This document shows positions 17,915 to 35,474 of a DNA stretch of 64,000 nt, piece by piece. How positions within the stretch are numbered: the stretch's first letter is position 1; every line of letters starts with the position of its first letter. Under the pieces are notes generated by a model, which had not been told where the DNA came from, ran no database searches, and saw only the letters and a program-made list of their open reading frames with translations. The DNA is from Promethearchaeota archaeon (GTDB lineage: Archaea > Asgardarchaeota > Lokiarchaeia > Sigyniarchaeales > SOKP01), in NCBI GenBank assembly GCA_019058445.1, contig JAHPZA010000009.1, positions 320,001-384,000 on the forward strand, read 5' to 3'. The translations under genes were made by a program, and so were the position numbers.

Positions 17915-20590
17915 TTACAAACTCTCTTTTAAGATATTCCTTAAAACTGTATGTAAAATTCCTCCATTCTTATAATATTCGATATCAACAGGAGTATCTA
18001 ATCTCGCAACTACTTTAAAAGTTTTTTCTTGTCCATTATCAGATTTAGCAATAACAGTCAACTCCCCTTGCGGGACTATTTCTTTAATCCCTAATATTTC
18101 ATAGGTTTCATTACCTATAAGTCCTAATGAATTTGCATTCTCACCATCTTTAAATTGAAGAGGTAAAACTCCCATTCCGACAAGATTACTTCTATGAATT
18201 CTTTCAAATGATTCAGCTAACACAGCTTTAATGCCTAATAATTGTGTTCCCTTTGCTGCCCAATCCCTTGAACTGCCCATGCCATAATCACCGCCCGCAA
18301 GGATTAATAACGGAATACCTTTCTTTTCATAGTCCATAGCCGCATCATAGATAGGAACTACAGTCCCCGATATATGATTAATGGTCCATCCTCCTTCTTT
18401 ATCCACGAGTTTATTTCTAATTCTTATATTTCCAAATGTACCTCGCATCATTACTTCATGATTTCCCCTTCTTGATCCAAATGAATTGAAATCTTTCACA
18501 TCTATTCCTTTTGAAATTAGATATTGCCCTGCGGGCATATCTTCTGGAATGGCTCCAGCCGGAGAGATGTGATCAGTTGTAACACTTACCCCCAATAATG
18601 CTAGTACTTTAGAGTTTTGAATGTTCTCCAAGGGGGGTTCATGAATTGGAAAATCTAGAAAAAATGGAGGTTCACGAATATATGTTGATTTTTCATCCCA
18701 CTTATACACCTCATCTTCAGGAGGATTGAGTTGATTCCAAAGATCCCATCCTTTAAAAATTTCACTATATTCCTTAGTAAATAAATCAGGACCGACAAAT
18801 TCATTAGTTAATTTTCTGATTTCATCGGCACTTGGCCAAATATCTTTTAAATATACGGGGTTATCGCTTTTATCTACACCTAATGGATCCTGGTACAAAT
18901 TTATCGCAACCGTACCTGCCAAAGCAAATGCTACAACCAGAGGAGGAGAAGCGAGATAGTTTGCTCTTACATGAGGACTAATCCGACCTTCAAAATTTCT
19001 ATTACCACTTAACACCGCAGCGGCAACGAGATCATGTTTATTTATTTCCTTAACAAACTCATCCTTTAAAGGACCACTATTTCCAATACAAGTTGTGCAT
19101 CCATAACCCACTAAATTAAATCCTAATTGTTCGAGGTAGGACATTAGACCTGAATTTTTCATATAATCAGTTACCACTCGGGACCCTGGTGCGAAACTAG
19201 TCTTTACATGATTAGGGACTTTTAAACCTCTTTCTAATGCATTTCTAGCTAACAAACCTGCTCCGATCATTACCGAAGGATTAGATGTATTGGTGCATGA
19301 TGTAATAGCAGCAATTATTACTGCCCCATGATTTAATTTATCCCCTCTGGAAATATTATTTGTTTCATTTGGTTTATTAAACATTGTTTTCATGCTCTCT
19401 AAAAATGTTTTTTTCATTTCTGGAAGCAGTATTCTGTCTTGGGGTCGCTTCGGACCTGCTAGACTTGGTTCCACCTTACTTAAATCAACTTCTATATATT
19501 CGCTAAATTCTGGCGTAGGTGATTCTTTCGAATAAAATATTCCGACTTTCTTCAAGTACTTTTCCACTAAATCAATTTGCTCATCCTTTCTCCCACTTAA
19601 TTTTAAATAATATAGAGTCTCCTCATCAACAGGAAAAAAACCCATAGTTGCCCCATATTCGGGAGACATATTGGCAATTGTTGCTCTGTCTGCTAAACTT
19701 AACTCTTTTAAGCTAGGTCCATAAAACTCAACAAACTTTCCAACAACTCCATGTTTTCTTAGGATTTGAGTAATAGTTAACACCACATCTGTTGCTGTCA
19801 CTCCAGATTTTATTTCCCCTATTAATTTAACTCCAACAACTTCAGGTATGGGCATATAATAAGGCTGACCTAAAAGAACTGCCTCTGCTTCAATACCACC
19901 CACACCCCACCCTAAAACACCTAAACTATTAATCATAGTAGTATGAGAATCTGTTCCTACTAAAGTATCTGGAAAGGAAATATTTTCTCCATTCACTTTT
20001 CTTAAATGCACTACTGAAGCTAAATACTCTAAATTAACTTGATGGCAAATACCTCGACTAGTGGGAACTACCCTAAAATTATTAAATACGCTCTGTGCCC
20101 ATTTTAAAAATAAATATCTTTCACGATTGCGCTCCATCTCCATTTCTTCATTTTTTTGAATCGCATTTTCAGTCCCATAAAAGTCAACTTGTATAGAGTG
20201 GTCAATTACTAAATCAGCAGGTACTACAGGATTTATTCGGGAAGGATCTCCTCCAGCTCTTTCCATAGCGGAACGTAGTGCTGCTAAATCAACCATCGCT
20301 GGAACACCCGTAAAATCTTGAAGGAGAACTCGAGATGGTATATACGGAATTTCCACTACATTATCACTATTTGGTACCCAGTTTAATAGGGCGAGAACAT
20401 GATCTTTAGTAATAAGCTCATCATCTAAATTTCTTACCATATTTTCTAGCAAAATTCGGAGAGAATAAGGTAATCTACTAATGTCTCCTAAATCTAAATC
20501 TTTTAATTTTTGAATATTATATATTGCAGTAACTCCTAGCTTGGTCTCTAAATTCTGCTTTAGTTTACGTTTTAATTCAAAACCATCCAA
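17915..20590 (-). CDS. acnA: Aconitate hydratase A
   Basis: LLQDFTGVPA.VDLA, DHSIQVD, GTDSHT, AAITSCTNTSNP, GYGCTTCIGNSG, GSSRDWAAKG. Confidence 0.97.
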   Translation of the reverse strand: MDGFELKRKLKQNLETKLGVTAIYNIQKLKDLDLGDISRLPYSLRILLENMVRNLDDELITKDHVLALLNWVPNSDNVVEIPYIPSRVLLQDFTGVPAMVDLAALRSAMERAGGDPSRINPVVPADLVIDHSIQVDFYGTENAIQKNEEMEMERNRERYLFLKWAQSVFNNFRVVPTSRGICHQVNLEYLASVVHLRKVNGENISFPDTLVGTDSHTTMINSLGVLGWGVGGIEAEAVLLGQPYYMPIPEVVGVKLIGEIKSGVTATDVVLTITQILRKHGVVGKFVEFYGPSLKELSLADRATIANMSPEYGATMGFFPVDEETLYYLKLSGRKDEQIDLVEKYLKKVGIFYSKESPTPEFSEYIEVDLSKVEPSLAGPKRPQDRILLPEMKKTFLESMKTMFNKPNETNNISRGDKLNHGAVIIAAITSCTNTSNPSVMIGAGLLARNALERGLKVPNHVKTSFAPGSRVVTDYMKNSGLMSYLEQLGFNLVGYGCTTCIGNSGPLKDEFVKEINKHDLVAAAVLSGNRNFEGRISPHVRANYLASPPLVVAFALAGTVAINLYQDPLGVDKSDNPVYLKDIWPSADEIRKLTNEFVGPDLFTKEYSEIFKGWDLWNQLNPPEDEVYKWDEKSTYIREPPFFLDFPIHEPPLENIQNSKVLALLGVSVTTDHISPAGAIPEDMPAGQYLISKGIDVKDFNSFGSRRGNHEVMMRGTFGNIRIRNKLVDKEGGWTINHISGTVVPIYDAAMDYEKKGIPLLILAGGDYGMGSSRDWAAKGTQLLGIKAVLAESFERIHRSNLVGMGVLPLQFKDGENANSLGLIGNETYEILGIKEIVPQGELTVIAKSDNGQEKTFKVVARLDTPVDIEYYKNGGILHTVLRNILKESL

Positions 20591-20651: not shown

Positions 20652-21923
20652 TTATCTTTCGTGCATTGTTATATAATTCTTATCAAGCTCACCTATATAA
20701 CGAAGTCGAGGTCTGATAAGTTTATTATCCGAAAGCTGTTCAATTGCATGAGCGACCCATCCTGCACTTCTTGACGCAGCAAATAAAGGGGTAAATAAGG
20801 GCGTAGGAATTCCTAAAATATGCAAGAGCCCTGCTGAATACAAGTCCACATTAGGGTAAATTTTTTTAGTGTTTATCATATATTCAGTTAATAACTCGGT
20901 CATTTCAAAGATATTATCTATTTCTCCATGTTCCGTATCATGTACCAGATCTGGAATACTTTCAATAATTTCACCTCTTTCCCAGCGTTCCCAGAAAAAT
21001 TTTGATATTTCACGCAGAATTTTTGCTCGAGGATCCCAAGTCTTATAAACTCTGTGTCCAAATCCCATAATTTTTTCTTTGTTTTCCAATTTAGTTTTTA
21101 GCCACGGCAAGACATCCTCCTTTTTTTTTATTTCTTCCAACATCATTCTTACAACTCTCTCATTTGCACCTCCATGTAATGGGCCTCTGAGAGTACCAAT
21201 TGCACTAGTAATCCCGCTGTATATATCTGATAAAGTAGAAACAGTTACTCTACATGAGAAGGTAGATGAATTAATTGAATGATCGGCATGACAGATTAAC
21301 ACATCGTCGAAGGCCTTTTCGATATCTCCACTAGGCTCTCTCCCAGTCATCATATAATAATAATTGGCAGCGTGAGAAAGTTCTTCAGATGGTTCAATTA
21401 ATGGTAAATTAGTTTGGATCCTGTGTGAAAATGCCAATACAGTTGGAATTTTTGCGATGATTCTAATACCCTTTCGGATATTTGCCTCTTCTGTGAAGAT
21501 ATAGTCGTCAGGATCGTAAAGAGATAATGCCGAAATGGATGTACGTAATAGTTCAATCCGAGTAGTGTTCCTCGGATAACTTTTAAGAATAGTCAAAATA
21601 TTGTCGGGGATATTTCGCTCTTTGATTAATTGATCTTTGAAAGAACTTAATTGATTTTTAGATGGTAGCCGACCATAAATTAAAAGATAAGCTACCTCTT
21701 CAAATGTTGAATTATTCACTAAATCCTCAAGTGAATAACCTCTGTAATATAATTTTCCGTGATCTCCATCAATGAAAGTAATCAGGCTATCATCCACGTA
21801 TATTCCTACTAATCCTTTATATGTTTTAGAGCGATCAAGTTCACATAACTGTGATTCTTCCTCCTCATAATCCTCACATACAAAAGTATCTGGTGTTTCA
21901 CATTTACTTGGATGTTGACTCAT
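20652..21923 (-). CDS. gltA: Citrate synthase
   Basis: LYYRGY, DHSINSSTF, GPLHGGAN, GFGHRVYK..DPR, PNVD, RPRLRY. Confidence 0.93.
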   Translation of the reverse strand: MSQHPSKCETPDTFVCEDYEEEESQLCELDRSKTYKGLVGIYVDDSLITFIDGDHGKLYYRGYSLEDLVNNSTFEEVAYLLIYGRLPSKNQLSSFKDQLIKERNIPDNILTILKSYPRNTTRIELLRTSISALSLYDPDDYIFTEEANIRKGIRIIAKIPTVLAFSHRIQTNLPLIEPSEELSHAANYYYMMTGREPSGDIEKAFDDVLICHADHSINSSTFSCRVTVSTLSDIYSGITSAIGTLRGPLHGGANERVVRMMLEEIKKKEDVLPWLKTKLENKEKIMGFGHRVYKTWDPRAKILREISKFFWERWERGEIIESIPDLVHDTEHGEIDNIFEMTELLTEYMINTKKIYPNVDLYSAGLLHILGIPTPLFTPLFAASRSAGWVAHAIEQLSDNKLIRPRLRYIGELDKNYITMHER

Positions 21924-22045: not shown

Positions 22046-23098
22046 TTAAACTAAAATATCTGGTGTGATCTCTGCTAAAGATTTTACACCCGTCATTTTC
22101 ATTGCTTTGGCTAAGGTTTTTTGTAGATATTCCATTTGTAATCTAACTCCCAATATTCCAGCTCCCACAGCAGCTCTTACTAAGTCTCGTCCTATGAGTA
22201 CCGCATCAGCACCTAATGCTAACATTTTTAATACATCATAACCATTTCTAATTCCTCCATCGGCTAAAATCATAATTTTGTCTTCCACCTCAGCTACAAT
22301 ATCAGGAAGTACATCAGCAGTTCCGGGTGTGTGGTCAAGTACTCGTCCTCCATGATTAGAGACCACAATGGCAGATGCTCCTACCTCAACAGCAGCTAAT
22401 GCGTCTTCACTACACATAATCCCCTTAATAATAACAGGTAATGACGTTGATTTCACTAATTCTTCAAGGTCTTCCACACTTTTACGATAAATGGGTCTAT
22501 CGTATTTCACCATGGCATAAGAACCACACCCATCGATATCTGTTCCTACAGCAATAGCTCCTGCGACTTCTGCCTTTTTAAAAAATTTAATAATAAGATC
22601 TTGATCACGGGGTTTAACAATTTTAACACCCCACCCATTTGCTTCGGCTATGGCATCAATCCCCCAAGTATTTTCTAATGAATAGGAATAAGAGTCTCCA
22701 CGCCATCCTACTGTTTTAGCTTCTTTGCACCCAAACACAACTGATCTACAAAACCCTTTTTCAGTAATTACTTCTTCACCTCCAAAGCTATTTACTCCAG
22801 CTACACTTGCTCCCATTATCGGCATTGATAATGCTCTCCCGAAAAAAAAGAATTTCGTATCAGGTTCAAAATGAGGTCCTATTACCCTCATTTTAAGCTT
22901 AATTTTTTTTAGGGCAAGAAAATTATTATGAAAGCTTGAGCCGCTTCCAACCCCTCCAATTCCAAGAGGCTTTCCATAACTATGACCCTGACATAATCTT
23001 GTATCCAGACCGTCACAATTCCTATATACTCCACAGATGCCTTTTAATTTGTCTCGTGCTTTTTCTCTAACGTCCGGAAGTGTGATATTTCCTGACAA
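22046..23098 (-). CDS. FMN-dependent alpha-hydroxy-acid dehydrogenase/oxidase family protein; substrate unknown, possibly malate
   Basis: IIKGI, VVSNHGGRVLD, ADGGIR.G.DV.KMLALGA..V.IGR; N-terminal CGVYRNCDG....LC Cys cluster. Confidence 0.88.
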   Translation of the reverse strand: MSGNITLPDVREKARDKLKGICGVYRNCDGLDTRLCQGHSYGKPLGIGGVGSGSSFHNNFLALKKIKLKMRVIGPHFEPDTKFFFFGRALSMPIMGASVAGVNSFGGEEVITEKGFCRSVVFGCKEAKTVGWRGDSYSYSLENTWGIDAIAEANGWGVKIVKPRDQDLIIKFFKKAEVAGAIAVGTDIDGCGSYAMVKYDRPIYRKSVEDLEELVKSTSLPVIIKGIMCSEDALAAVEVGASAIVVSNHGGRVLDHTPGTADVLPDIVAEVEDKIMILADGGIRNGYDVLKMLALGADAVLIGRDLVRAAVGAGILGVRLQMEYLQKTLAKAMKMTGVKSLAEITPDILV

Positions 23099-23118
23099 AT
23101 CTCATTCCACCCGTATTA

Positions 23119-24510
23119 TTAAACCATCTTTTTGGGATCTAATAAAGTATCTAAATCCTCATCAAATTCTAAGCCCATTTCCATTATCACTTCTTTGATA
23201 GTTTTTCCCTCATTGAATGCTTTTTGTGCGATTACCGAACATTTATCGTAGCCGATGTAAGGACTTAGATTTGTAACTAACATAATGAGTTTTTCTAATT
23301 GCGAATTTATTTGAATTTTATTAGCTTTCAAATCCAATAAACAATTTTCTATAAAAGATTGAATTGCATTACTTAAAATCTGAATTGAATCGAGAATATT
23401 GTATATTATAATAGGTTTACATATGTTAAGATCCAAAATGCTTCCATACCCCTCGCCAAAAGATACAATAGCATCATTTCCAAACACCTGTATGCATACT
23501 TGAATAAGAGCCTCCGATTGAGTTGGATTAGTTTTTCCAGGCATTATGGAGGATCCCGGCTCATTTTGTGGCAAAATCAATTCAGAGAGCCCCGCCCGAG
23601 GTCCGCTCCCCATCCATCTAATATCATTTGCCATTTTCATTAATGAAAGTGATAATTGTCTTAATGCCGCACTGGCATTAACAAGGGTATTATGAGAAGC
23701 GATACCTTCAGCTTTTACAGGGTTTAGCTTAATAGGGTACTTAGTAATTTCAGATAATTTTCTAACCACAATTTTCGCAAAATCTTTATGAGCATTAATT
23801 CCTGTCCCTAAAGCAGTTCCTCCTAATGGAATATAACACAACTCATCGAACACATATTTAAGTCTTTTTTCACTGATTTCAATCTGTTTTCTATAAACCT
23901 CAAATTCCAATGAAATTGGGATAGGTACAGCATCCTGTAGGTGAGTTCTTCCGACTTTAATAATCCCATTAAAATCTCTGATTTTCTGGTTCAAAGTTTC
24001 AATTAAGTTTTTAATTACTGGAAAAAGCTTATTACTCAATAAATGTAGAACTGATACATGCATAGTTGTAGGGATTACATCGTTAGAAGATTGCCCTTTA
24101 TTCACGTGATCATTAGGGTGAACTGGATACTTTTTACCCATAGGATGTCCCATTATTTCATTTGCTCTATTAGCCAGAACTTCATTCATATTCATATTGG
24201 TCTGGGTACCAGATCCTGTTTGATAAATGTCAATAGGAAATTGATCAAAATGCTTATTTTCTTCTAATATTTCTTTCATTGATAAAAGAAGTGCATCTCC
24301 AATTCCCTTTTCTACTAATTTTAACTCTAAGTTAGCTAACAAACATGTTTTTTTAACTTCTGCAAGTGAGCGAATAAAGATATCTGGAAATCTTTTTTTG
24401 CTAATTTGGAAATTTTGAATGGCTCTTTGTGTATTTATACCCCAGTAAACATTACTAGGAACATTCATTTCGCCTAAAACATCCTTTTCTTTACGAAATT
24501 CTTCATTCAT
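23119..24510 (-). CDS. fumC: Class II fumarate hydratase
   Basis: QTGSGTQTNMN, HPNDHVN.GQSSND, GRTHLQDA, GSSIMPGK.NP. Confidence 0.95.
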   Translation of the reverse strand: MNEEFRKEKDVLGEMNVPSNVYWGINTQRAIQNFQISKKRFPDIFIRSLAEVKKTCLLANLELKLVEKGIGDALLLSMKEILEENKHFDQFPIDIYQTGSGTQTNMNMNEVLANRANEIMGHPMGKKYPVHPNDHVNKGQSSNDVIPTTMHVSVLHLLSNKLFPVIKNLIETLNQKIRDFNGIIKVGRTHLQDAVPIPISLEFEVYRKQIEISEKRLKYVFDELCYIPLGGTALGTGINAHKDFAKIVVRKLSEITKYPIKLNPVKAEGIASHNTLVNASAALRQLSLSLMKMANDIRWMGSGPRAGLSELILPQNEPGSSIMPGKTNPTQSEALIQVCIQVFGNDAIVSFGEGYGSILDLNICKPIIIYNILDSIQILSNAIQSFIENCLLDLKANKIQINSQLEKLIMLVTNLSPYIGYDKCSVIAQKAFNEGKTIKEVIMEMGLEFDEDLDTLLDPKKMV

Positions 24511-25267
24511 TTTTGATCCACTTATCTCTTATATCTTTTATAGCAGTTCCGGGCATAATATTTTTAGGACAAACGCGATTACAAATAAAGAACTTCTCAC
24601 AAGCGGGTACGCCATCTTCTTTTATAATCCGCGAAACTACTTTCTGTTGCTTTTCTTTAGTTATTCGTGAATCATTTATAAATCTATCTGCCTTTGCGAG
24701 TTGGGCCGGTCCCAGATAACTTGGATTTTTATTACTAACAGGGCATGCCCAGCATAAGCCACATAGTATACAATATACTAATCTCTCAATTACTTTCATT
24801 TGGGTTGGAGATTGTTTTGATTCTGGTGCTACATCGTTCCATTCTCTTACCAAATAAGGTTCAATTTCTCGATAAAATTTCCAAAAGGGTTCCATATCTA
24901 CGACTAAATCTTTAAGAACTTTCATATTGGGCAATGGTTCAATTAAAATTTCATTCTCTTTATCCCAATATGAGTGATCTCCAAATTCAAACTCAGGTAT
25001 ATTGATTGACTTTTTCGCCGTTTTAAGTGTAGATACTTGCACTCTACATGCTAGCATAGGAACTTTATCTATTGTCATCCCACAAGAGCCACATATTGCT
25101 CCTCTACACGCATATCTAAAAGCGAGTGTAGAATCAAAATGATCTTGTATATAAAACAAAGCTTCAAGGACACTCATTCCTTTAGATATTGGAAGTTCAT
25201 ACCTTTCATAACGTATATCTCCATTTCCAGGATTTCTATAAACTAATAATTTGACATTTTTTGTCAT
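24503..25267 (-). CDS. sdhB: Succinate dehydrogenase/fumarate reductase Fe-S subunit
   Basis: CRGAICGSC...LAC (2Fe-2S), CILCGLCWAC, CEKFFICNRVCP. ATG 25267, just after the sdhA stop, is preferred to TTG 25279. Confidence 0.92.
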   Translation of the reverse strand: MTKNVKLLVYRNPGNGDIRYERYELPISKGMSVLEALFYIQDHFDSTLAFRYACRGAICGSCGMTIDKVPMLACRVQVSTLKTAKKSINIPEFEFGDHSYWDKENEILIEPLPNMKVLKDLVVDMEPFWKFYREIEPYLVREWNDVAPESKQSPTQMKVIERLVYCILCGLCWACPVSNKNPSYLGPAQLAKADRFINDSRITKEKQQKVVSRIIKEDGVPACEKFFICNRVCPKNIMPGTAIKDIRDKWIKNE

Positions 25268-25268
25268 T

Positions 25269-26981
25269 TCAATAAGCACGCTCCTTTACTTCAAATATTC
25301 CCAATATAACGGGTTTTTGTTTCAGCTCTAAACCATCTTTAGTTCTATAAACTAAAGAGTGCCAAAGAAAATTCTTATCATCTCGTTCAGGATAGTCCCA
25401 GCGGTAATGTGCACCCCTACTCTCTTTCCTCATCAAAGCAGCATATGCAGTTACTTCTGCAATATCTAACATACTTCTAAGCTCCAAAGTGCGAATAAGA
25501 CCATAATTAAATTTACGATCTGATGTTGCTATGTGTACGTCTTGAAAATCTTCTTGTAATCTTTTAAGATCCTCATACGCGTATTTAAGTTCATCTTGTT
25601 TTCGAAAAACTCCAACATATTGATTCATAATTCCTCCCATGGCCTGCCTTATTACAACTGGTTTTTTACCGCTGTTATTTTCCCATTTTTTAAATAAATC
25701 TTCAGTTTCCTTTAATACTTTATTTTCAACATTTTCTCTGATAGGTGAGGATGGTCTTGAGGGTAAGCCTTTTTCCAATAACTTTCTGCCAATGGCTCTT
25801 CCGAATACTGAAGTTTCTAATAATGAATTACCCCCTAAACGATTTGCTCCATGAACAGAAAGGCATGAACATTCCCCAACAACCCATAGTCCAGACAAAT
25901 CAGTTTCTCCAAAATCTCCTTCAAATTTTGTAGCTATCCCTCCCATACTATAATGTTGACCAGGTTGTACGGGGATTGGCTCCTCAATTGGATCTATTCC
26001 CGCAAAGTAAATACTTATCTCTCGAATCCCGGGAAGCCTTTCATTTATTTTATTCGCACCTAAATGAGTAAGATCTAGATTAACGTAAGCATTTTCGAAG
26101 CCACGCCCTTCCATGACTTCAATGTCGATTGCCCTCGCTACCATATCACGAGGTGCAAGTTCCATTGCCTTTGGGGCAGTTTTGCTCATAAATCGTTCAC
26201 CTTCATTGTTATACAAAAGCCCTCCTTCTCCGCGTGCCCCCTCGGTAATTAAAATATTTGTACCATATAAAGTTGTAGGATGGAATTGTACAAATTCACA
26301 GTCTTGCATTGGAACTCCCGCTCTGAAAGCTGCGCCATTTCCATCTCCTGTATTGATAATTGCATTTGTAGAGCTTTTAAACATTCTCCCAAATCCTCCC
26401 GTGGCGAGAATAACATACAATGATCGAAATATCACAAGTTCCCCGCTGGCAATATCAAGACAGATGACGCCAGCGATTTTATTCTCAACAACAATAAGGT
26501 CAATCAAGAAATATTCATCGAAAAATTTAACACTATTTCTAACACACTGTTCATATAAGGTATGCAAAAGTGCATGTCCAGTACGATCTCCTGCGTAACA
26601 AGTACGAGGAAAGCCAGCTCCTCCGAAAGGTCTTTGGGCAATTAAGCCAGAATCTAACCGCGAAAATGGAGCTCCCATACTCTCAAATTCAATCACAATT
26701 TTTGGAGCTTCTTCACACATAAACATTACTACGTTTTGATCAGCTAAATAGTCGGAGCCTTTAACTGTATCAAACGCATGTCCTTTCGGGGTATCATCCT
26801 TGCCAACTTCTAGATTGCCTAGAGCAGCGTTAATTCCTCCTTGAGCAGCTCCTGAATGGCTACGTACAGGATATACTTTACTAATAATCGCTACATTCCA
26901 TTGAGATGATAATTCCAAACCAGCTCTTAGGCCACTAAGTCCTGCCCCTACAATAATTACATCAAATTCTTCAATATCCAT
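25269..26981 (-). CDS. sdhA: Succinate dehydrogenase/fumarate reductase flavoprotein
   Basis: GAGLSG, RSHSGAAQGG (covalent-FAD His), QFHPT, ITEGARGEGG, ELAPRD, HYSMGG, HGANRLGGNSL, ESRGAH. Confidence 0.96.
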   Translation of the reverse strand: MDIEEFDVIIVGAGLSGLRAGLELSSQWNVAIISKVYPVRSHSGAAQGGINAALGNLEVGKDDTPKGHAFDTVKGSDYLADQNVVMFMCEEAPKIVIEFESMGAPFSRLDSGLIAQRPFGGAGFPRTCYAGDRTGHALLHTLYEQCVRNSVKFFDEYFLIDLIVVENKIAGVICLDIASGELVIFRSLYVILATGGFGRMFKSSTNAIINTGDGNGAAFRAGVPMQDCEFVQFHPTTLYGTNILITEGARGEGGLLYNNEGERFMSKTAPKAMELAPRDMVARAIDIEVMEGRGFENAYVNLDLTHLGANKINERLPGIREISIYFAGIDPIEEPIPVQPGQHYSMGGIATKFEGDFGETDLSGLWVVGECSCLSVHGANRLGGNSLLETSVFGRAIGRKLLEKGLPSRPSSPIRENVENKVLKETEDLFKKWENNSGKKPVVIRQAMGGIMNQYVGVFRKQDELKYAYEDLKRLQEDFQDVHIATSDRKFNYGLIRTLELRSMLDIAEVTAYAALMRKESRGAHYRWDYPERDDKNFLWHSLVYRTKDGLELKQKPVILGIFEVKERAY

Positions 26982-27039: not shown

Positions 27040-27897
27040 TTAGCGAAATGTTTCTAATAATTCATTAAATTTAATTTTGTCTAATTCCCTTTTGTAGAGG
27101 GGAGTGCTGTCATTATCGTAAATCCCTACATTTTCTTCGTAAGTTTTTTTATTGGGATTAAGGTATAAAATTCCTAAAGGGAATTTTCTAGTTTCTAAAG
27201 CTTTTTCAATTGCTTTATTTTGGTCATAAGGATCATGAGAATCATCTAAATAATAAGTGTTTTGTTTATACCACTCATAGGTGTTGACCCGATTGAAAGA
27301 GACGCATGGACAAAATAAATCTATCAAGGCATATCCTTTATGTTTGATAGCTTTTTTAAGGATCTCTTTAGTTTGTTCAATATCGCCCACAAAAGCACGG
27401 GCTACAAAGGAAGCATCTAATGATATAGCTATTGCCGGTGCATTAAAAGGCTGATTATATACTCCTTTTACTTGTACCTTTGTTACAAAGCCAATTTGGC
27501 TTGTAGCAGAAGCCTGTCCCTTAGTAAGTCCATATACCTGATTATTGTGTACGATATTCACAATATCCGGATTATACCGAATCGTATGTAGAAAATGATT
27601 ACCTCCCTCACTAAAAGTGCACCCGTCTCCACTAACTGCTATGACTGTAAGTTCTGGATTGGCAGCTTTGGCTCCAAGTGCATTGGATAAATATCGCCCA
27701 TGTAGTCCATTAAAACTCTGGGATTTCATGAAATGTGGAAATTTTCCAGCTTGACCAATTCCCGATATTAAAGCAAATTCATATGGTTTTATTCCTAATT
27801 CGCTAAGGGTTTCTTTCATTATTCTAAGAGCAAGATAATTTCCACAACCTGGACACCACGAAATTTCTGCATCTCGATCAAAAATATTACTTGACAT
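27040..27897 (-). CDS. korB: 2-oxoacid:ferredoxin oxidoreductase beta subunit (probably 2-oxoglutarate by context)
   Basis: [38 protein letters not shown]. Confidence 0.9.
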
Positions 27898-27998
27898 TTT
27901 CTTAATTATTTTCTCGAATAATTAAGATATCTTTTACTAACGAATAAATAAATTCTTTCTTAATAGTTTATAATAAGACTTAGGACTATGAATTATAT

Positions 27999-29828: not shown

Positions 29829-30018
29829 GTTTTTATCACATCACTTTGTTATCTTGATCTTAAATAGATTAGAACGTAATATTTTAACATTTTTTTAAAA
29901 CTATTCAAATACCGAAACGAATATATAATTCTTTTTCATCATATTTAAATCTTTGATTTTTGACAGAATTTAGAAATGGATAAAAAATTATATATAAAAT
30001 AGATTTTATTAAACTACA

Positions 30019-30144
30019 ATGGGCATGAATAGAAAAGAAATCGTTGAGGAAATTAGAATTGTACTGAATCAAAATGAAGATCTAAAGGACGTTAAATTTA
30101 AACCGCATTATAAAAGTAAATTTTTGACCTCATCCATGATATAG
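30019..30144 (+). CDS. Possible 41-aa peptide or gene remnant (not in ORF track)
   Basis: Manual translation MGMNRKEIVEEIRIVLNQNEDLKDVKFKPHYKSKFLTSSMI; no recognisable motif. Confidence 0.3.
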   Translation: MGMNRKEIVEEIRIVLNQNEDLKDVKFKPHYKSKFLTSSMI

Positions 30145-30306
30145 TAATCCTATATTTTCTATTCAAGCTTATAATATACTTAATATTTATTTCTTTATTA
30201 TTTAATTTGATAGATGTAAGACAAAAATTTCTATTAAATTGGTGAAAATAAAATATCAAAAAGAAAATCAGAAATAAATTCTTTTAATTTTAAAATTATT
30301 TGCCTA

Positions 30307-31301: not shown

Positions 31302-31547
31302 TTGGAAAAAGGATTATCAATAGTCTCAATCATTATTGGTGCATGTTTTGTTATATATTTCTGGATTCTAATTGGTTTAACACTGTTTTGGATTAGTTTT
31401 TCAAATTATTATATCAATTGGAATATATTTATCCCAATCTTAATTATCTTGTTCTTAGGAATAATCGCAATCATTATTGGAATAAAAGGATTAAGAAACA
31501 AATTATATAAAGAAAAGATAACTCAAATTCGGTTTTACTTCTTTTAA
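31302..31547 (+). CDS. Small two-TM membrane protein
   Basis: Two hydrophobic helices and a basic tail; TTG start; stop overlaps the korA stop. Confidence 0.55.
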   Translation: MEKGLSIVSIIIGACFVIYFWILIGLTLFWISFSNYYINWNIFIPILIILFLGIIAIIIGIKGLRNKLYKEKITQIRFYFF

Positions 31548-33259
31548 TCACCCTCAACAATTTTTTTTAATTTTTGGTGTAATTCTTCTACTGAAAACAC
31601 ATAACCACTGTACTTTAATATGTTTATATCGATCTTTACATGAGTCTCTAACTCTACTAACTTGGCAAATTGCCCTGTAGGATTGTTTTCGATTGCGATA
31701 ATCTTTTTCGCTTTATTCACATGGTCAATAATACTTGAATGTAAAGGATAGACTTGCTTAAAATGCAAAAATGCGATATCTTCTCGGTTCAGAGTTTCGA
31801 GTGCTTCTTTAATTAAATAGTAGTTGCTTCCCCATCCTATGATTAAAAATTCATAATCATCATTTCCAATGAGTTCAGGTGGTGTAGCTATCTTTTTGAT
31901 GAGTTCAAGTTTCTTATACCGTTTTTCAACTGTTTTTTTCCTAATGGTTGGATCTTCTGTAATATTTCCTTCTTCTGTATGAGTATGACTATCCGCATCT
32001 ACTAGTCCAGTTCCGTATCCTGGAACACTAAGAGGAGAAATGCCACTTTCAGTGAATCGATATCTTTCATAATTCTCATCATTTTGTACGAAATATTTTT
32101 TAATTTCTAATTTTTCATGCTCTAAAGAAGATATGTTGTAATATGAATCAATGAGATATTGGTCAGATAAGATAAAAACGGGTACTTGATATTTTTGTGT
32201 TAAATTAAACGCATTTTGAGTTAGTTTAAACGCATCTTCGATTGTTCCTGGAGCGAATATAATTCTTGGGAAATATCCCGCTCCAGCATAAAGAACTAGT
32301 TCAAGATCTTCCTGCGCAGTACGAGTGGGCATACCGGTCGCAGGTCCAGGTCTCTGACCAACAAGTATTACAATAGGTAGTTCCATCATACCTGCTAAAC
32401 TTACTCCTTCACACATTAGAGAAAAACCACCTCCAGAGGTAGAAACAAAAGAACGCGCCCCTGTATATGAAGCACCTATAGCTTTATTTATTACACTAAT
32501 CTCATCTTCAGACTGATCAACTATAATAGAGAAATCAAGACCATGTTGAGCAAGAAAAGTTCCAACACCAGTAGAGGGAGCCATTGGATAAAATGTAACA
32601 TAATTGGCACCTCCAGCTATAGCTCCCAGGGCCACTGCTTCTCTTCCATCTAACAAATAATCATTAATTACATCAAAATTTCTTTTCAACATGAATTCTC
32701 TCTTTATTTTGCTATTTCTTATTAAATTCGCAGCAATTTCGAATCCTTTATCAGCAGCTTTAATATTCTCATCTATAAGAGCTTTTCCTTTACTTTTAAA
32801 AGTTTCAGAAAGAGCTGTGTGAAGTGTATTTTCATTTACATTTAAAAGACCACATATAACACCAAGAGCAATTATATTAGCAAAAATTTTACCTCCAATT
32901 TCCTTTGCAAGTTGCTCAAAAGGAATTTCAATCCTCTCGCAATCATTTTCAGAGCTCGTTTGAATAAATTGCTTTTCCCCGAGGACTAAAGTTTGTTGAG
33001 AAATTCTTTCCTTTATATGAGGTATTGCCTCTTCGTTAAGAGGAATTAATATGTCAATTCGTTCTATATAAGCCCGAACTGGATTGGAAGAGACACGTAT
33101 CGATGTGGAATTAACCCCACCTCGAACTCTTGACATATATTCTCTCGTTGCAAATACATTAAATCCAGATTTTTTTAATGTTCTTGTAAGTAAGCTTTCA
33201 ACTGTTTGAATTCCTTGACCCGCAGCTCCACATAATACTATAGAAAAATCATTCTCCAA
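31544..33259 (-). CDS. korA: 2-oxoacid:ferredoxin oxidoreductase alpha subunit (fused gamma-alpha)
   Basis: GAAGQG, EYMSRVRGG, YPMAPST, QSEDEI, TSGGGFSLM.EG, QRPGPATGMPT. Confidence 0.92.
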   Translation of the reverse strand: MENDFSIVLCGAAGQGIQTVESLLTRTLKKSGFNVFATREYMSRVRGGVNSTSIRVSSNPVRAYIERIDILIPLNEEAIPHIKERISQQTLVLGEKQFIQTSSENDCERIEIPFEQLAKEIGGKIFANIIALGVICGLLNVNENTLHTALSETFKSKGKALIDENIKAADKGFEIAANLIRNSKIKREFMLKRNFDVINDYLLDGREAVALGAIAGGANYVTFYPMAPSTGVGTFLAQHGLDFSIIVDQSEDEISVINKAIGASYTGARSFVSTSGGGFSLMCEGVSLAGMMELPIVILVGQRPGPATGMPTRTAQEDLELVLYAGAGYFPRIIFAPGTIEDAFKLTQNAFNLTQKYQVPVFILSDQYLIDSYYNISSLEHEKLEIKKYFVQNDENYERYRFTESGISPLSVPGYGTGLVDADSHTHTEEGNITEDPTIRKKTVEKRYKKLELIKKIATPPELIGNDDYEFLIIGWGSNYYLIKEALETLNREDIAFLHFKQVYPLHSSIIDHVNKAKKIIAIENNPTGQFAKLVELETHVKIDINILKYSGYVFSVEELHQKLKKIVEGD

Positions 33260-33496: not shown

Positions 33497-34621
33497 ATTC
33501 GCTTACTCGAATATGAAAGTAAGGAAGTATTTTCTCAATTTGGTCTTCCGCTTGCGAAAAATAATGTGATCAATAATAAGGAAGATATTGAAGAAAAAGT
33601 AGATATATTTCAATTTCCAGCAATAATTAAATCACAAATTGCGATCGGAAGTAGAAAAAAAGCTGGGTTAATTAAAATTGCGCAGAATAACACCGAAGCA
33701 AAAGCTCTATGTGAAGAATTCTTTAGGAAAGAGGTTGGAGGCTTTCGAGTAGAAGCTATTCTTATTGAGGAATTGGTTACAATTCAACATGAATACTACT
33801 GCTCAATCGCCTTAGATGCTTCCAGTAGGCAGTTCTTTTTAATTGCGAGTAAAGAAGGAGGAATTGATATTGAAGAAGTGGCGACAACCCATCCCGAGGC
33901 TATAATTAAAGAAAATTTTTCATTGAAACAAGGTTTAACCAAAGAAATTGCTAAAAAGGTCGCAGAACAATTAGATATCACAAATAAACTTTTAAATTCT
34001 GCTATAGATATTTTTTTAAAGTTATGGGAAATTACATTTAAGACAGAAGCGCAATTAGTTGAAATTAATCCTTTAGTTTTGACCCCTTCAGGGTTATTAG
34101 CCGTAGATGGAAAGATGATTTTAGATGATGATGCAGCTTTTCGCCAACCATTAATTCAAGAATTAGAACCAAAAAAACTCTCTAATTTGGAGAAAGTAGC
34201 TAAAGAGGCAGGTTTTTCATTTGTAGAATTAGAGGGGGATATTGGAATCTTAGCAAATGGGGCTGGGTTAACTATGGCGCTTTTAGATGTATTATCTCAG
34301 CTCGGATTAAAACCCGCAAATTTTTTAGATGTTGGTGGGGGTGCCAGTAAAGAACGTGTGTATAAAGCCCTTGAGTTAATATTTAAACTGACTCCTAAAT
34401 GTGTTTTAATTAATATTTTTGGTGGAATAACCCGCTGTGATATTGTTGCAGAGGCTGTTATTCAAGCTCTAAAAGACTTCTCAAATGCTCCCCCTATAGT
34501 TATCAGATTAACGGGGACAAATGAAAAAGAGGGAATTGATTTACTTAAACGTGAGAATATTAATGCATTCAATGACGTAATGGAAGCAGTCAAAAAAGTG
34601 AAGGAGGTACTAGGTGGCTAA
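33497..34621 (+). CDS. sucC: Succinyl-CoA synthetase beta subunit; N-terminus extended to a probable ATT start at 33497
   Basis: EGGIDIEE, EINPL, NGAGLTM, PANFLDVGGG, NIFGGITRCD, RLTGTN. The frame upstream of GTG 33566 reads (I)RLLEYESKEVFSQFGLP, matching the conserved SucC N-terminus. Confidence 0.93.
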   Translation: MRLLEYESKEVFSQFGLPLAKNNVINNKEDIEEKVDIFQFPAIIKSQIAIGSRKKAGLIKIAQNNTEAKALCEEFFRKEVGGFRVEAILIEELVTIQHEYYCSIALDASSRQFFLIASKEGGIDIEEVATTHPEAIIKENFSLKQGLTKEIAKKVAEQLDITNKLLNSAIDIFLKLWEITFKTEAQLVEINPLVLTPSGLLAVDGKMILDDDAAFRQPLIQELEPKKLSNLEKVAKEAGFSFVELEGDIGILANGAGLTMALLDVLSQLGLKPANFLDVGGGASKERVYKALELIFKLTPKCVLINIFGGITRCDIVAEAVIQALKDFSNAPPIVIRLTGTNEKEGIDLLKRENINAFNDVMEAVKKVKEVLGG

Positions 34622-35474
34622 AATGTATGTTAGTCAAAATTCAAAAGTGGTTGTTCAAGGAATAACTGGAAATCAAGGGGCCTTTCATACCAAATTAATG
34701 TTAGAGTATGGAACTAATATTGTTGCGGGAGTTACACCAAAAAAGGGAGGGCAAGAGGTACATGGTGTACCTGTTTTTAATTCCGTTAAAGAAGCAGTCT
34801 CAGAAAAAGACTGTGATACAAGTATTATCTTTGTTCCAGCAAAATTTATGTTTGAAGCTGTAAAGGAAAGTATATTAGCAGGTATCGCGATGACTTGTAT
34901 TATTACAGAAAATGTCCCAGTCTTTGATATGTTAAGACTAGTTGAGATGGCTCAAGAAAGAAAACAGCATCTTCTTGGTCCAAATTGTCCAGGAATGATG
35001 ATACCAGACAAAATAAAGCTAGGAATAATGCCAGGAGATATGTGTCATTACGGCAATGTAGCGGTGATTTCAAAAAGTGGTACTCTTTCTTATGAAATTA
35101 CTAAAACAATTGGTAACGCAGGAATTGGAGTTTCGGCTTATATTGGCATTGGAGGAGATCCCATTAGAGGGAAGACAATGATTGAAGCTGTTGAATATTA
35201 TTCTAACGATCCTAACACTAAAAAAATTGTACTTATTGGAGAAATAGGAAGTGATGAGGAAGAAAAGACTGCTGAATTTATAAAAGAGCATGTTTCTAAG
35301 CCCATCATTGCATATATTGCGGGAAAAAGTGCCCCTGAGGGAAAAAGAATGGGTCATGCGGGAGCTATAATTTCTGGAGATTTTGGTACAGCCCAAGGAA
35401 AGATTAAAGCATTAAAAAATGCTGGAGCTTTAATAGCAGATTTACCATGGGAAATCCCTAATCTTTTAAAATAA
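34614..35474 (+). CDS. sucD: Succinyl-CoA synthetase alpha subunit
   Basis: VQGITG..G.FH, GPNCPG, SKSGTL, GIGGDP, IGEIG, RMGHAGAI (phospho-His). Confidence 0.96.
   Translation: MAKMYVSQNSKVVVQGITGNQGAFHTKLMLEYGTNIVAGVTPKKGGQEVHGVPVFNSVKEAVSEKDCDTSIIFVPAKFMFEAVKESILAGIAMTCIITENVPVFDMLRLVEMAQERKQHLLGPNCPGMMIPDKIKLGIMPGDMCHYGNVAVISKSGTLSYEITKTIGNAGIGVSAYIGIGGDPIRGKTMIEAVEYYSNDPNTKKIVLIGEIGSDEEEKTAEFIKEHVSKPIIAYIAGKSAPEGKRMGHAGAIISGDFGTAQGKIKALKNAGALIADLPWEIPNLLK

What the first reader, a model, noticed from the sequence alone, without database searches (positions are those of the whole stretch)
22046..23098. Candidate non-orthologous malate dehydrogenase: FMN alpha-hydroxy-acid dehydrogenase between fumC and gltA
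Seen: the gene starts 20 bp after fumC and precedes citrate synthase, the position of the malate-to-oxaloacetate step, and no NAD-MDH or Mqo is in the cluster. It keeps the catalytic SNHGGR and has an N-terminal Cys cluster (C-x5-C-x7-C) that is not part of the glycolate/lactate oxidase core. Known: this family oxidises (S)-2-hydroxy acids to 2-oxo acids, and L-malate is such a compound. I know of no member established as a TCA-cycle malate dehydrogenase. Inference: an FMN (possibly Fe-S) malate:acceptor oxidoreductase that closes the cycle.
Basis: inference. Interest (0 to 1): 0.82.

Follow-up and report, generated by a model that had tools for sequence, protein, structure and literature searches.

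The report
Candidate flavin/iron-sulfur malate dehydrogenase
A flavin enzyme of the lactate/glycolate-oxidase family sits in the malate dehydrogenase slot of citric-acid-cycle gene clusters in this Asgard archaeon and in at least eight other phyla, so it is probably an undescribed NAD-independent malate dehydrogenase, though no one has assayed it.

Summary
Window 22046-23098 (-) encodes a 350-aa PF01070 protein, 20 nt after fumC and 122 nt before gltA. It lies in a near-complete TCA cluster: sucCD / korA-korB-sdhA-sdhB-fumC-X-gltA-acnA. SNHGGR and C22-x5-C28-x7-C36 are present.

The 4.6-Mb Asgard assembly (92.6% complete) has no Ldh_1, Ldh_2, Mqo or malic enzyme hit.

A tree of 81 relatives splits cleanly in two.
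- Clade A holds this protein. It has three Cys, with Tyr/Phe replacing the second Cys, and often an N-terminal rubredoxin. 33 of 40 loci have TCA genes within 5 kb, in different arrangements, across Asgard, Spirochaetota, Fibrobacterota, Desulfobacteraceae, Myxococcota, methanogens and Bathyarchaeia.
- Clade B has a CxxCxxCxxxC motif. 0 of 41 loci have TCA neighbours.

In 61 Desulfobacteraceae the ortholog is complementary to NAD-MDH: 8/49 with the ortholog carry Ldh_1, against 7/12 without it. None has Mqo.

Caveats:
- Nothing has been assayed.
- Most Asgard relatives also carry an Ldh_2 gene.
- There is no anticorrelation with MDH inside the Asgard class.
- The bacteria that lack MDH do have malic enzyme.

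Best reading (about 0.6): an FMN plus 3Fe-4S-like malate:acceptor (rubredoxin-type) oxidoreductase. The scan's first readers flagged the same arrangement in other genomes. I found no paper describing it.

The parts
22046..23098 (-). Gene X: a 350-aa FMN-dependent alpha-hydroxy-acid dehydrogenase-family protein of clade A, the candidate malate:acceptor oxidoreductase
   Evidence: Pfam PF01070 1.1e-63. AF2 model pLDDT 93.9. Foldseek TM 0.78 to mandelate oxidase, LCHAO and HAO1. Placed in clade A of the family tree.
22991..23035 (-). N-terminal Cys loop C22-x2-Y25-x2-C28-D-G-x5-C36, a presumed 3Fe-4S-type cluster site
   Evidence: C22, C28 and C36 are invariant in alignments A1 and A2. The sister clade has CxxCxxC[DN]GxxC at the same place. 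The region has lower pLDDT (65-88), as expected for an empty metal site.
22343..22360 (-). SNHGGR: catalytic His249 and carboxylate-binding Arg252
   Evidence: These align to His and Arg of SNHGAR in L-lactate oxidase and HAO1. They are invariant in A1.
23099..23118 (-). 20-nt fumC-X spacer with a GGTGG ribosome-binding motif
   Evidence: Read from the sequence.
23119..24510 (-). fumC, class II fumarase, which makes L-malate
   Evidence: Lyase_1 and FumaraseC_C; TIGR00979 2e-167.
20652..21923 (-). gltA, citrate synthase, which consumes oxaloacetate
   Evidence: PF00285 3.8e-122; TIGR01800 over its cut-off.
17915..20590 (-). acnA, aconitase
   Evidence: NF006757 at 1389 bits.
24503..26981 (-). 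sdhA (25269-26981) and sdhB (24503-25279): succinate dehydrogenase/fumarate reductase with no membrane-anchor genes beside them
   Evidence: TIGR01812 at 744 bits and TIGR00384 at 206 bits.
27040..27897 (-). korB, 2-oxoacid:ferredoxin oxidoreductase beta subunit
   Evidence: TIGR02177 over its cut-off.
31544..33259 (-). korA, 2-oxoacid:ferredoxin oxidoreductase alpha/gamma subunit, separated from korB by a low-GC insert
   Evidence: POR_N and POR.
33566..35474 (+). sucC (33566-34621) and sucD (34614-35474), succinyl-CoA synthetase, divergent from korA
   Evidence: ATP-grasp_2, Ligase_CoA and CoA_binding.
55146..56495 (+). NAD(P)H:rubredoxin reductase-like flavoprotein with a C-terminal rubredoxin domain; possibly part of the rubredoxin electron network (link to X is inferred)
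   Evidence: Pyr_redox_2, Rubredoxin_C and Rubredoxin. Stand-alone rubredoxin at G000:C9:384424-384570.

Best explanation
Gene X encodes a cytoplasmic TIM-barrel flavoprotein of the (S)-2-hydroxy-acid oxidase/dehydrogenase superfamily. It interconverts L-malate and oxaloacetate without NAD. The proposed mechanism is as follows. Malate made by FumC binds over FMN. His249 abstracts the hydroxyl proton, Arg252 holds the C1 carboxylate and Lys225 stabilises reduced FMN. The two electrons then leave one at a time through an iron-sulfur cluster held by Cys22, Cys28 and Cys36. This cluster is 3Fe-4S-like, because the second Cys of the ancestral CxxCxxCxxxC motif is Tyr. The electrons pass to a small one-electron carrier, most likely rubredoxin. 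Rubredoxin is fused to the N-terminus of the orthologs in Desulfobacteraceae, Myxococcota and methanogens and is free-standing in this genome. An acceptor more positive than the oxaloacetate/malate couple (-166 mV) would make malate oxidation exergonic, as with Mqo, and would feed oxaloacetate to the citrate synthase encoded next door. With a reduced carrier the same enzyme could run as an oxaloacetate reductase for the reductive branch. What is shown: the fold, the conserved catalytic residues, the conserved Cys, the gene order, the phylogenetic clade and the phyletic patterns. What is inferred: the substrate, the cofactor type, the redox partner and the direction.
For: 1. Family and catalytic core. 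PF01070 scores 1e-63. The AF2 model has pLDDT 93.9 and TM 0.78 to solved hydroxy-acid oxidases. K225, H249, R252, D189 and D280-G-G-x-R284 are invariant.

2. Position in the window. X sits between fumC and gltA inside sucCD/korAB-sdhAB-fumC-X-gltA-acnA.

3. Conservation of position within the class. It lies directly downstream of fumC in 53 of 57 genomes of the class. 56 of 57 carriers have fumC, against 47 of 104 non-carriers.

4. Independent arrangements elsewhere:
- sucA-sucB-gltA-X in Planctomycetota, Fibrobacteria and Chitinivibrionales
- korA-korB-X with divergent gltA in Desulfocicer vacuolatum DSM 3385
- sdhA-sdhB-fumC-(Rd)X in Methanobacterium and an unclassified bacterium
- acnA/gltA beside X in Myxococcales and Methanosarcinales
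- X-sdhAB in Bathyarchaeia
The only TCA step never encoded beside it is malate/oxaloacetate.

5. Tree. Clade A has TCA neighbours in 33 of 40 loci and clade B in 0 of 41. The split has 100/100 SH-aLRT support, and 0 of 500 label shuffles were as clustered.

6. Missing-gene argument.
- No Ldh_1, Ldh_2, Mqo or malic enzyme in this assembly.
- None of Ldh_1, Ldh_2 or Mqo in the isolates Desulfocicer vacuolatum and Desulfobacter latus, nor in MAGs of Planctomycetota, Myxococcales and Chitinivibrionales.
- In 61 Desulfobacteraceae, Ldh_1 occurs in 8/49 with the ortholog (3 strong hits) against 7/12 without it. Mqo is over its cut-off in 0/61.

7. Electron path. The three Cys are invariant, and the sister clade has a four-Cys ferredoxin-type motif. 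Rubredoxin fusions occur in clade A.
Against: - There is no enzymatic, genetic or expression data.
- Within the Asgard class there is no anticorrelation with Ldh_1 (18/57 against 19/104).
- Ldh_2, proposed as the MDH of Loki/Thor in 10.1101/385732, is present in 141 of 161 genomes, including most carriers and 7 of 9 genus-mates. Its locus is simply not in this 92.6%-complete assembly.
- Methanobacterium carriers have both Ldh_1 and Ldh_2.
- The bacteria that lack MDH/Mqo have malic enzyme, so a malate-pyruvate-oxaloacetate bypass is possible.
- By profile alignment, canonical Tyr129 is Lys159 here and Pro in most relatives. No counterpart of Arg164 is evident, so substrate binding differs from characterised members.
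- Only 29 of 57 Asgard carriers have gltA.
- korAB-X arrangements would equally fit a 2-oxoglutarate-related substrate.
Confidence: 0.6

Rival explanations
1. X oxidises a different (S)-2-hydroxy acid that feeds or cleans the cycle. One candidate is L-2-hydroxyglutarate to 2-oxoglutarate, for korAB. Others are L-lactate or glycolate. The link to fumC and gltA would then be operon convenience.
For: - The family's characterised members act on lactate, glycolate, mandelate and long-chain hydroxy acids.
- korA-korB-X occurs in Hodarchaeota and Desulfobacteraceae.
- A HAD-phosphatase fusion in clade B hints at glycolate or another small hydroxy acid as substrate for some relatives.
- Most Asgard carriers have an Ldh_2 gene that could be the real MDH.
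Against: - The commonest partners are fumC (directly upstream in 53 of 57) and gltA, not kor.
- The complementarity in Desulfobacteraceae is with NAD-MDH.
- From my own knowledge, Desulfobacter species are acetate specialists that do not use lactate.
- L-2-hydroxyglutarate repair is mainly needed where MDH makes it.
- Ldh_2 in this class occurs regardless of fumC (141/161 against 103/161) and sits in a non-TCA context.
Confidence: 0.2
2. X is not a free-standing substrate dehydrogenase. It would be an electron-input or electron-output module of the anchorless SdhAB, for example passing electrons between a flavin/Fe-S relay and fumarate reductase. Alternatively it catalyses a non-hydroxy-acid reaction on the FMN barrel.
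For: - sdhA-sdhB-(fumC)-X is a recurrent unit, and sdhCD anchors are absent from the cluster.
- Tyr129 is not conserved.
- Weak Pfam overlaps with DHO_dh, NMO and Glu_synthase.
Against: - The His/Arg/Lys/Asp set specific to 2-hydroxy-acid chemistry is invariant across both clades.
- sucAB-gltA-X and gltA-X loci lack sdh altogether.
- The other Pfam hits cover only the shared FMN-phosphate-binding strands.
Confidence: 0.1
3. X is dispensable or redundant here. The real malate dehydrogenase of this organism would be an Ldh_2 or Ldh_1 gene lying in the unassembled 7% of the genome, and X would have an unrelated accessory role.
For: - The assembly is 92.6% complete, in 10 contigs with N gaps.
- Genus-mates G048 and G052 carry both X and Ldh_2.
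- The whole Ldh_2 neighbourhood of those genomes is missing from G000.
Against: - This does not explain the conserved position of X in TCA clusters of many phyla, nor the isolates with finished-quality genomes that lack every known MDH/MQO family.
- Redundancy between MDH and a carrier-linked enzyme is normal. From my own knowledge, E. coli and Corynebacterium have both Mdh and Mqo.
Confidence: 0.1

Closest known systems
FMN-dependent (S)-2-hydroxy-acid oxidases/dehydrogenases (glycolate oxidase/HAO1, L-lactate oxidase, flavocytochrome b2, mandelate oxidase/dehydrogenase, LldD; Pfam PF01070)
   Same: - Same TIM-barrel fold (TM 0.78).
- Same FMN-binding strands.
- Same catalytic His-Arg (SNHGGR), Lys and Asp.
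- L-malate is an (S)-2-hydroxy acid.
   Different: - Identity is 30% or less, and only the C-terminal half aligns well.
- The N-terminal helix carrying Tyr24 is replaced by a Cys loop.
- Tyr129 and Arg164 are not conserved.
- Scores fall far below the NCBIfam cut-offs for LldD, lactate oxidase and MftD.
- The predicted electron exit is through Fe-S/rubredoxin rather than O2, haem b2 or quinone.
- It is embedded in the TCA cycle.
Malate:quinone oxidoreductase (Mqo, PF06039)
   Same: It has the same proposed role: NAD-independent, flavin-dependent oxidation of malate that is exergonic and can replace or accompany NAD-MDH in the cycle.
   Different: - Mqo is unrelated: an FAD Rossmann-type peripheral membrane protein that reduces quinone directly.
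- X is an FMN TIM barrel with Cys ligands and no membrane segment.
- No Mqo homolog was found in any carrier genome tested.
FMN plus Fe-S TIM-barrel flavoproteins such as the glutamate synthase alpha subunit (3Fe-4S bound by C-x5-C-x4-C; from my own knowledge)
   Same: It combines an FMN barrel with a three-Cys cluster motif of similar spacing, used to pass single electrons.
   Different: - The barrel family and the chemistry are different.
- The only Pfam overlap (Glu_synthase, E 4e-6) covers residues 269-305, the phosphate-binding strands.
- In X the cluster loop is N-terminal.
Clade B relatives ('alpha-hydroxy-acid oxidizing protein' or 'putative L-lactate oxidase' of Bacillota, Fusobacteriota, Desulfovibrionaceae, Nitrospirota)
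   Same: Identity is 35-48% over the full length, with the same architecture and the Cys loop at the same site.
   Different: - They have four Cys (CxxCxxC[DN]GxxC).
- They have no TCA neighbours (0 of 41).
- Some carry Tat signals, ATP-grasp ligase fusions or HAD fusions.
- They are also uncharacterised, as far as I could find.

Membership tests
FMN-dependent alpha-hydroxy-acid dehydrogenase/oxidase superfamily (PF01070) | (beta/alpha)8 barrel recognised by the family profile | tested here: met
   Pfam 215.9 bits against a cut-off of 24.9. AF2 pLDDT 93.9. Foldseek E 1e-25 and TM 0.78 to mandelate oxidase, LCHAO and HAO1.
FMN-dependent alpha-hydroxy-acid dehydrogenase/oxidase superfamily (PF01070) | Catalytic base His and carboxylate-binding Arg (His254/Arg257 of glycolate oxidase) | tested here: met
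   H249 and R252 lie in SNHGGR and align to SNHGAR of lactate oxidase and HAO1. They are invariant in 44 and in 81 sequences.
FMN-dependent alpha-hydroxy-acid dehydrogenase/oxidase superfamily (PF01070) | Lys that stabilises FMN N1/O2 (Lys230) and Asp paired with the His (Asp157) | tested here: met
   K225 (IIKGI) aligns to the VAKGI Lys. D189 aligns to the Asp of VTVDT in HAO1. Both are invariant.
FMN-dependent alpha-hydroxy-acid dehydrogenase/oxidase superfamily (PF01070) | Tyr that hydrogen-bonds the substrate hydroxyl (Tyr129 of glycolate oxidase, Tyr132 of HAO1) | tested here: not met
   In the profile alignment to HAO1, LQLYIYKDR pairs with GVKIVKPRD. That position is Lys159 here and Pro in most relatives. 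The alignment in this half is weak (30.8 bits).
FMN-dependent alpha-hydroxy-acid dehydrogenase/oxidase superfamily (PF01070) | Tyr24 and Arg164, which hold the substrate carboxylate | tested here: inconclusive
   The YDYY helix is replaced by the Cys loop. Y41 (Tyr/Phe across clade A) might substitute for it. No Arg lies 7 residues after D189. Model coordinates could not be inspected.
LldD / L-lactate oxidase / MftD equivalogs (NCBIfam) | Score at or above the curated equivalog cut-off | tested here: not met
   NF008398 149.6 against 376. NF033901 135.3 against 550. TIGR02708 116.3 against 645.5. TIGR03966 120.1 against 470.9.
Known malate dehydrogenases (Ldh_1 NAD-MDH, Ldh_2, Mqo) | Homology to PF00056/PF02866, PF02615 or PF06039 | tested here: not met
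   None of these families appears among the protein's Pfam hits. If X is a malate dehydrogenase it is analogous to these, not homologous.
Clade A ('TCA-linked, three-Cys') of the Fe-S-type FMN_dh subfamily, as defined here | Branches within clade A, carries the C-x2-[Y/F]-x2-C-D-G-x5-C motif, and has S193 and R308 | tested here: met
   The tree split has 100 SH-aLRT support. The motif CGVYRNCDGLDTRLC is present. S193 is found in 100% of clade A and 0% of clade B; R308 in 88% against 12%.
Iron-sulfur flavoprotein (cluster actually bound) | Fe-S cluster ligated by the three Cys | not testable with these tools
   Only conservation and motif type are available. This needs EPR, UV-vis or a structure.

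The most novel reading that the evidence does not exclude
Clade A would be a previously unrecognised, widespread class of malate dehydrogenase: a malate:rubredoxin/Fe-S oxidoreductase with FMN and a 3Fe-4S-type cluster. It would close the TCA cycle in many anaerobes, including Asgard archaea. It would also be the gene behind the NAD(P)-independent malate dehydrogenase activity reported decades ago in Desulfobacter (my recollection; not verified here). Together with anchorless SdhAB and FumC it may form a soluble, carrier-coupled module that oxidises malate while reducing fumarate. That would balance a branched cycle without NAD or quinone.
Probability: 0.45. Interest if true: 0.9.

Novelty: new variant of a known kind. 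Interest (0 to 1): 0.8.

Why it matters
The malate/oxaloacetate step is the thermodynamic bottleneck of the oxidative TCA cycle. Only NAD(P)-MDH (two folds) and FAD-Mqo are known to catalyse it. A third, FMN/Fe-S solution would have several consequences:
- Metabolic reconstructions would change wherever the step is scored as missing or is assigned on weak grounds to Ldh_2. This covers Asgard archaea (relevant to models of the eukaryotic host's metabolism), acetate-oxidising sulfate reducers, Planctomycetota, Myxococcota and some methanogens.
- An old orphan enzyme activity in Desulfobacter would gain a gene.
- It would reveal a rubredoxin-linked electron outlet from central carbon metabolism.
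- Thousands of proteins now named 'alpha-hydroxy-acid oxidizing protein', 'lactate dehydrogenase' or '4-hydroxymandelate oxidase' would be re-annotated.

Tried and rejected
- **Complex prediction** of X with the genome's own 48-aa rubredoxin plus FMN gave no verdict (score 0.00). It counts neither for nor against binding.
- **Rubredoxin-fused representatives** P0002-P0004 were looked up for context. P0003 and P0004 are not in TCA clusters and P0002 lies on a 2-kb contig. A rubredoxin fusion alone therefore does not mark TCA linkage.
- **Specificity residues.** I looked for a basic residue specific to the TCA-linked clade that could bind the distal carboxylate. K159 is confined to Asgard and Planctomycetota (Gln or Pro elsewhere). 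Only S98, S193 and R308 are clade-A-specific. Without coordinates I could not place them.
- **Isocitrate as substrate** was considered, because icd is absent from the cluster. I rejected it. From my own knowledge, isocitrate has the D (2R) configuration at the hydroxyl carbon, while this family is L-specific. An Iso_dh gene also exists elsewhere in the genome.
- **Verifying the Desulfobacter activity.** I tried to confirm from the held literature that Desulfobacter postgatei has an NAD-independent malate dehydrogenase. The papers found cite Brandis-Heep et al. 1983 but do not state this. It remains my recollection.
- **Literature searches** for an FMN-type malate dehydrogenase, or for notes on missing MDH in Asgard or Desulfobacteraceae, found nothing relevant.
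- **Atlas feature search** returned only unnamed 'alpha-hydroxy-acid oxidizing protein' clusters.
Full report
**1. What is in the window**

On the minus strand the ORFs read as follows:
- korA (31544-33259)
- a 3.6-kb low-GC insert
- korB (27040-27897)
- sdhA (25269-26981)
- sdhB (24503-25279)
- fumC (23119-24510)
- gene X (22046-23098)
- gltA (20652-21923)
- acnA (17915-20590)

sucC and sucD (33566-35474) are divergent from korA.

X starts with TTG, 20 nt after the fumC stop, behind a GGTGG motif. Orthologs begin at the same residue. X is a PF01070 FMN_dh protein (1.1e-63). Its C-terminal half (about residues 190-350) aligns well to solved lactate, glycolate and mandelate oxidases. Its N-terminal half aligns only weakly. 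SNHGGR (residues 247-252) and C22-x5-C28-x7-C36 are present.

**2. The organism and its other malate enzymes**

The closest relatives are Promethearchaeota/Lokiarchaeia-type Asgard MAGs. The assembly is 4.61 Mb in 10 contigs and is 92.6% complete.

Six-frame profile searches found no Ldh_1 (PF00056, PF02866), Ldh_2 (PF02615), Mqo (PF06039) or malic enzyme (PF00390). The positive controls behaved as expected. One Iso_dh gene lies elsewhere in the genome.

There is a caveat. Ldh_2 occurs in 141 of 161 genomes of the class and in 7 of 9 genus-mates. The Ldh_2 neighbourhood of two genus-mates has no counterpart at all in this assembly. A gap therefore cannot be excluded. A preprint proposed COG2055 (Ldh_2) as the Loki/Thor MDH on homology grounds (10.1101/385732). 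Two points weaken that assignment. In this class Ldh_2 is present whether or not fumC is (141 against 103 of 161). Where I looked, it also lies beside cation-efflux, nitroreductase and FAD-oxidoreductase genes, not TCA genes.

**3. Linkage inside the Asgard class**

- X (E <= 1e-30) occurs in 57 of 161 genomes.
- 56 of those 57 have fumC, against 47 of the 104 without X.
- In 53 of 57, X lies immediately downstream of fumC on the same contig (coordinates).
- gltA is present in 29 of 57 carriers, against 15 of 104 non-carriers.
- Ldh_1 is not anticorrelated: 18/57 against 19/104.
- In ten fumC-positive genomes without X, fumC sits in a different context, next to a distant aconitase-family gene. 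Only one of the ten has gltA and sdhA nearby.

**4. Linkage outside the Asgard archaea**

This is the strongest evidence. Two scans of one-genome-per-species contigs gave 91 loci. tblastn with the window's TCA proteins and Pfam scans of neighbours show:
- sucA-sucB-gltA-X in Planctomycetota, Fibrobacteria and Chitinivibrionales
- fumC and sdhA beside X in a Treponemataceae MAG
- gltA (divergent) with korA-korB-X in the isolate Desulfocicer vacuolatum DSM 3385 and a closed Desulfobacterium-like chromosome
- gltA beside X in other Desulfobacteraceae
- sdhA-sdhB-fumC-X in an unclassified bacterium and in about ten Methanobacterium/Methanobacteriota genomes
- acnA and gltA beside X in Myxococcales and Methanosarcinales
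- sdhAB-X in Methanoperedens
- X-sdhAB with gltA in Bathyarchaeia

The partners differ between lineages, but all are TCA enzymes. The one cycle step never encoded beside X is malate/oxaloacetate. Its substrate and product are exactly what FumC makes and citrate synthase uses.

**5. A distinct clade with a distinct metal motif**

A maximum-likelihood tree of 81 members splits into two clades. Each has 100% SH-aLRT support.

Clade A (40 rows) contains the window's protein. 33 of the 40 loci have TCA genes within 5 kb.

Clade B (41 rows) covers Bacillota, Fusobacteriota, Desulfovibrionaceae, Nitrospirota and ATP-grasp-fused Spirochaetota proteins. None of its loci has TCA neighbours.

The TCA label needs 6 changes on the tree, against a mean of 26 in shuffles; 0 of 500 shuffles were as low.

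The clades also differ in the N-terminal loop. Clade B has CxxCxxC[DN]GxxC, a ferredoxin-type four-Cys motif. Clade A has C-x2-[Y/F]-x2-C-D-G-x5-C, so the second Cys is replaced and three invariant Cys remain. Loss of the second Cys of a CxxCxxC motif is the classic route to 3Fe-4S clusters, and glutamate synthase binds its 3Fe-4S next to FMN with C-x5-C-x4-C (both from my own knowledge). A 3Fe-4S-type centre is therefore the likeliest cofactor, but it is inferred.

Many clade A proteins carry an N-terminal rubredoxin or rubredoxin-like domain. These include Desulfobacteraceae, Myxococcales, the unclassified bacterium, Methanobacterium, Methanosarcinales, Methanoperedens and Bathyarchaeia. Two of them, Methanosarcinales and Methanoperedens, have the rubredoxin but lack the Cys loop.

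The Asgard proteins lack the fusion. This genome does encode a free 48-aa rubredoxin just beyond the window, and an NAD(P)H:rubredoxin-reductase/rubredoxin fusion at 55146-56495.

Clade B shows other fusions: Tat signals, ATP-grasp ligases and a HAD phosphatase. This points to other substrates and cellular locations for that clade.

**6. Missing-gene and complementarity tests in bacteria**

Ldh_1_C, Ldh_2 and Mqo were all not found in the following carriers:
- Desulfocicer vacuolatum DSM 3385
- Desulfobacter latus AcRS2
- a Desulfobacteraceae MAG
- the Planctomycetota MAG (5.8 Mb) and the Myxococcales MAG (6.3 Mb)
- the Chitinivibrionales, Sedimentisphaerales, Methanosarcinales and Sifarchaeum MAGs
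- bacterium Meg22

Results for an even sample of 61 Desulfobacteraceae:

| Genomes | Number | With any Ldh_1_C hit | With a strong hit (E < 1e-30) |
|---|---|---|---|
| With the ortholog (59% identity or more to the Desulfocicer protein) | 49 | 8 | 3 |
| Without the ortholog | 12 | 7 | 7 |

No Mqo hit reached the family cut-off in any of the 61.

These genomes are related, so the number of independent events is small. Even so, the pattern is what non-orthologous replacement predicts. Desulfobacter species oxidise acetate through a modified citric acid cycle (PMC2702500 and PMC9768450, citing Brandis-Heep 1983). I recall that their malate dehydrogenase was reported as NAD(P)-independent, but I could not verify this in the held literature.

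Counter-evidence:
- All five MDH-less bacteria tested have malic enzyme, so a bypass through pyruvate is possible.
- Fibrobacteria, Treponemataceae, Syntrophorhabdaceae, Methanobacterium, Methanoperedens, Bathyarchaeia and one Hodarchaeota carrier also have Ldh_1 and/or Ldh_2.

**7. Structure and active site**

The AF2 model built on 44 sequences is confident (pLDDT 93.9, pTM 0.93). It is less confident only at residues 30-50, the presumed metal loop. Foldseek's best matches are mandelate oxidase, long-chain hydroxy-acid oxidase, HAO1 and flavocytochrome b2, at TM about 0.78 and 30% identity or less. No solved structure has the Cys loop.

Residues invariant across both clades are K162, D187, D189, K206, K225, S247-N-H-G-G-R252, D280-G-G-x-R284 and R304.

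In the profile alignment to HAO1, Asp160 pairs with D189. Tyr132 (Tyr129 of glycolate oxidase) pairs with Lys159 here and with Pro in most relatives. The YDYY helix is replaced by the Cys loop. The chemistry at FMN is therefore conserved, but substrate recognition is not canonical.

Clade-A-specific residues are S98, S193 and R308. Their positions relative to FMN could not be examined.

NCBIfam scores are far below the cut-offs for LldD, lactate oxidase and MftD.

**8. Interpretation**

The best-supported reading (about 0.6) is that clade A enzymes interconvert L-malate and oxaloacetate using FMN. Electrons would leave or enter through the three-Cys cluster to a rubredoxin-type carrier. This acceptor potential would make malate oxidation favourable, and it explains the enzyme's place between fumC and gltA.

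The direction may differ by host. It would be oxidative where OGDH or citrate synthase clusters carry X. It could be reductive in methanogens with sdhAB-fumC-X.

A more speculative extension is a soluble malate-oxidising, fumarate-reducing module formed with the anchorless SdhAB.

The rivals are another 2-hydroxy acid (0.2), an electron-transfer or other non-canonical role (0.1), and redundancy with an unassembled MDH (0.1).

**9. Novelty**

I found no paper describing an FMN-type malate dehydrogenase or discussing this gene in TCA clusters. Database names are generic: 'alpha-hydroxy-acid oxidizing protein', '4-hydroxymandelate oxidase' and 'IPP isomerase/L-lactate dehydrogenase-like'.

First-stage readers of this scan independently flagged the same arrangement on other genomes. 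Those notes are unchecked and are not independent evidence.

I classify the finding as a new variant of a known kind: a known superfamily with a new cofactor architecture and a probable new physiological role.

Noticed in passing
window 27898-31543: The korA-korB pair is split by a 3.6-kb insert of about 26% GC. The insert holds a 609-aa ORF with no Pfam hit (27999-29828, -), a leucine-rich-repeat protein (30307-31254, +) and an 81-aa ORF. It looks like a foreign insertion into the TCA operon. Relatives such as L038-L040 have korA/korB adjacent or korB directly upstream of sdhA.
   Followed up: partly
window 55146-58029 and G000:C9:384424-384570 (L117:925-1071): A rubredoxin network lies near the TCA cluster. 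It comprises an NAD(P)H:rubredoxin reductase-like protein with a C-terminal rubredoxin domain (55146-56495), a ferric-reductase-type FAD/NAD protein (56707-58029), a 2x4Fe-4S protein (54232-55023) and a free 48-aa rubredoxin just past the window end.
   Followed up: partly
L062 and L082 (Methanosarcinales, Methanoperedens): These clade A members keep the N-terminal rubredoxin but have lost the three-Cys loop entirely (the sequence ...DNPxxxPExxQEYGxPLG replaces it). They still sit beside acnA/gltA or sdhAB. The rubredoxin iron may therefore be sufficient as the electron relay.
   Followed up: no
L086, L088, L101, L105 and P0006 (Desulfovibrionaceae, Nitrospirota): These clade B (four-Cys) relatives carry twin-arginine signal peptides (RREFLKGAA...). 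That implies periplasmic FMN/Fe-S hydroxy-acid dehydrogenases. Other clade B proteins are fused to ATP-grasp L-amino-acid-ligase domains (about 750 aa), and one to a HAD phosphatase (P0054).
   Followed up: partly
L011:5824-6246 and G016:C1:2229221-2229613: Only C-terminal fragments of X remain (frames of 140 and 138 aa). One is in a Sedimentisphaerales MAG, between fumC and pntAB. The other is in a closed 6-Mb Asgard genome that lacks fumC. They look like decaying copies.
   Followed up: no
L006:7085-9953 and L011:6254-9122: In Planctomycetota and Sedimentisphaerales, the membrane NAD(P) transhydrogenase genes pntA-pntAB-pntB lie convergent with X, directly downstream of it.
   Followed up: no
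Class-wide, e.g. G033:C135:4241-6543, G093:C138:25441-27748, G143:C323:16427-18737: Many Loki-type genomes carry two tandem Ldh_2 genes. The family is nearly universal in the class (141 of 161) irrespective of TCA genes, so its assignment as 'the' Asgard malate dehydrogenase deserves testing.
   Followed up: partly
L020-L029 (fumC-positive Asgard genomes without X): In these genomes fumC sits near a distant aconitase-family gene (26-29% identity to AcnA) instead of the sdhAB/gltA/acnA cluster. fumC therefore has a second, non-TCA-cluster context in this class.
   Followed up: no
window 16012-17820: A prolyl-oligopeptidase/S9 peptidase with beta-propeller repeats follows acnA on the same strand, 94 nt downstream.
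   Followed up: no
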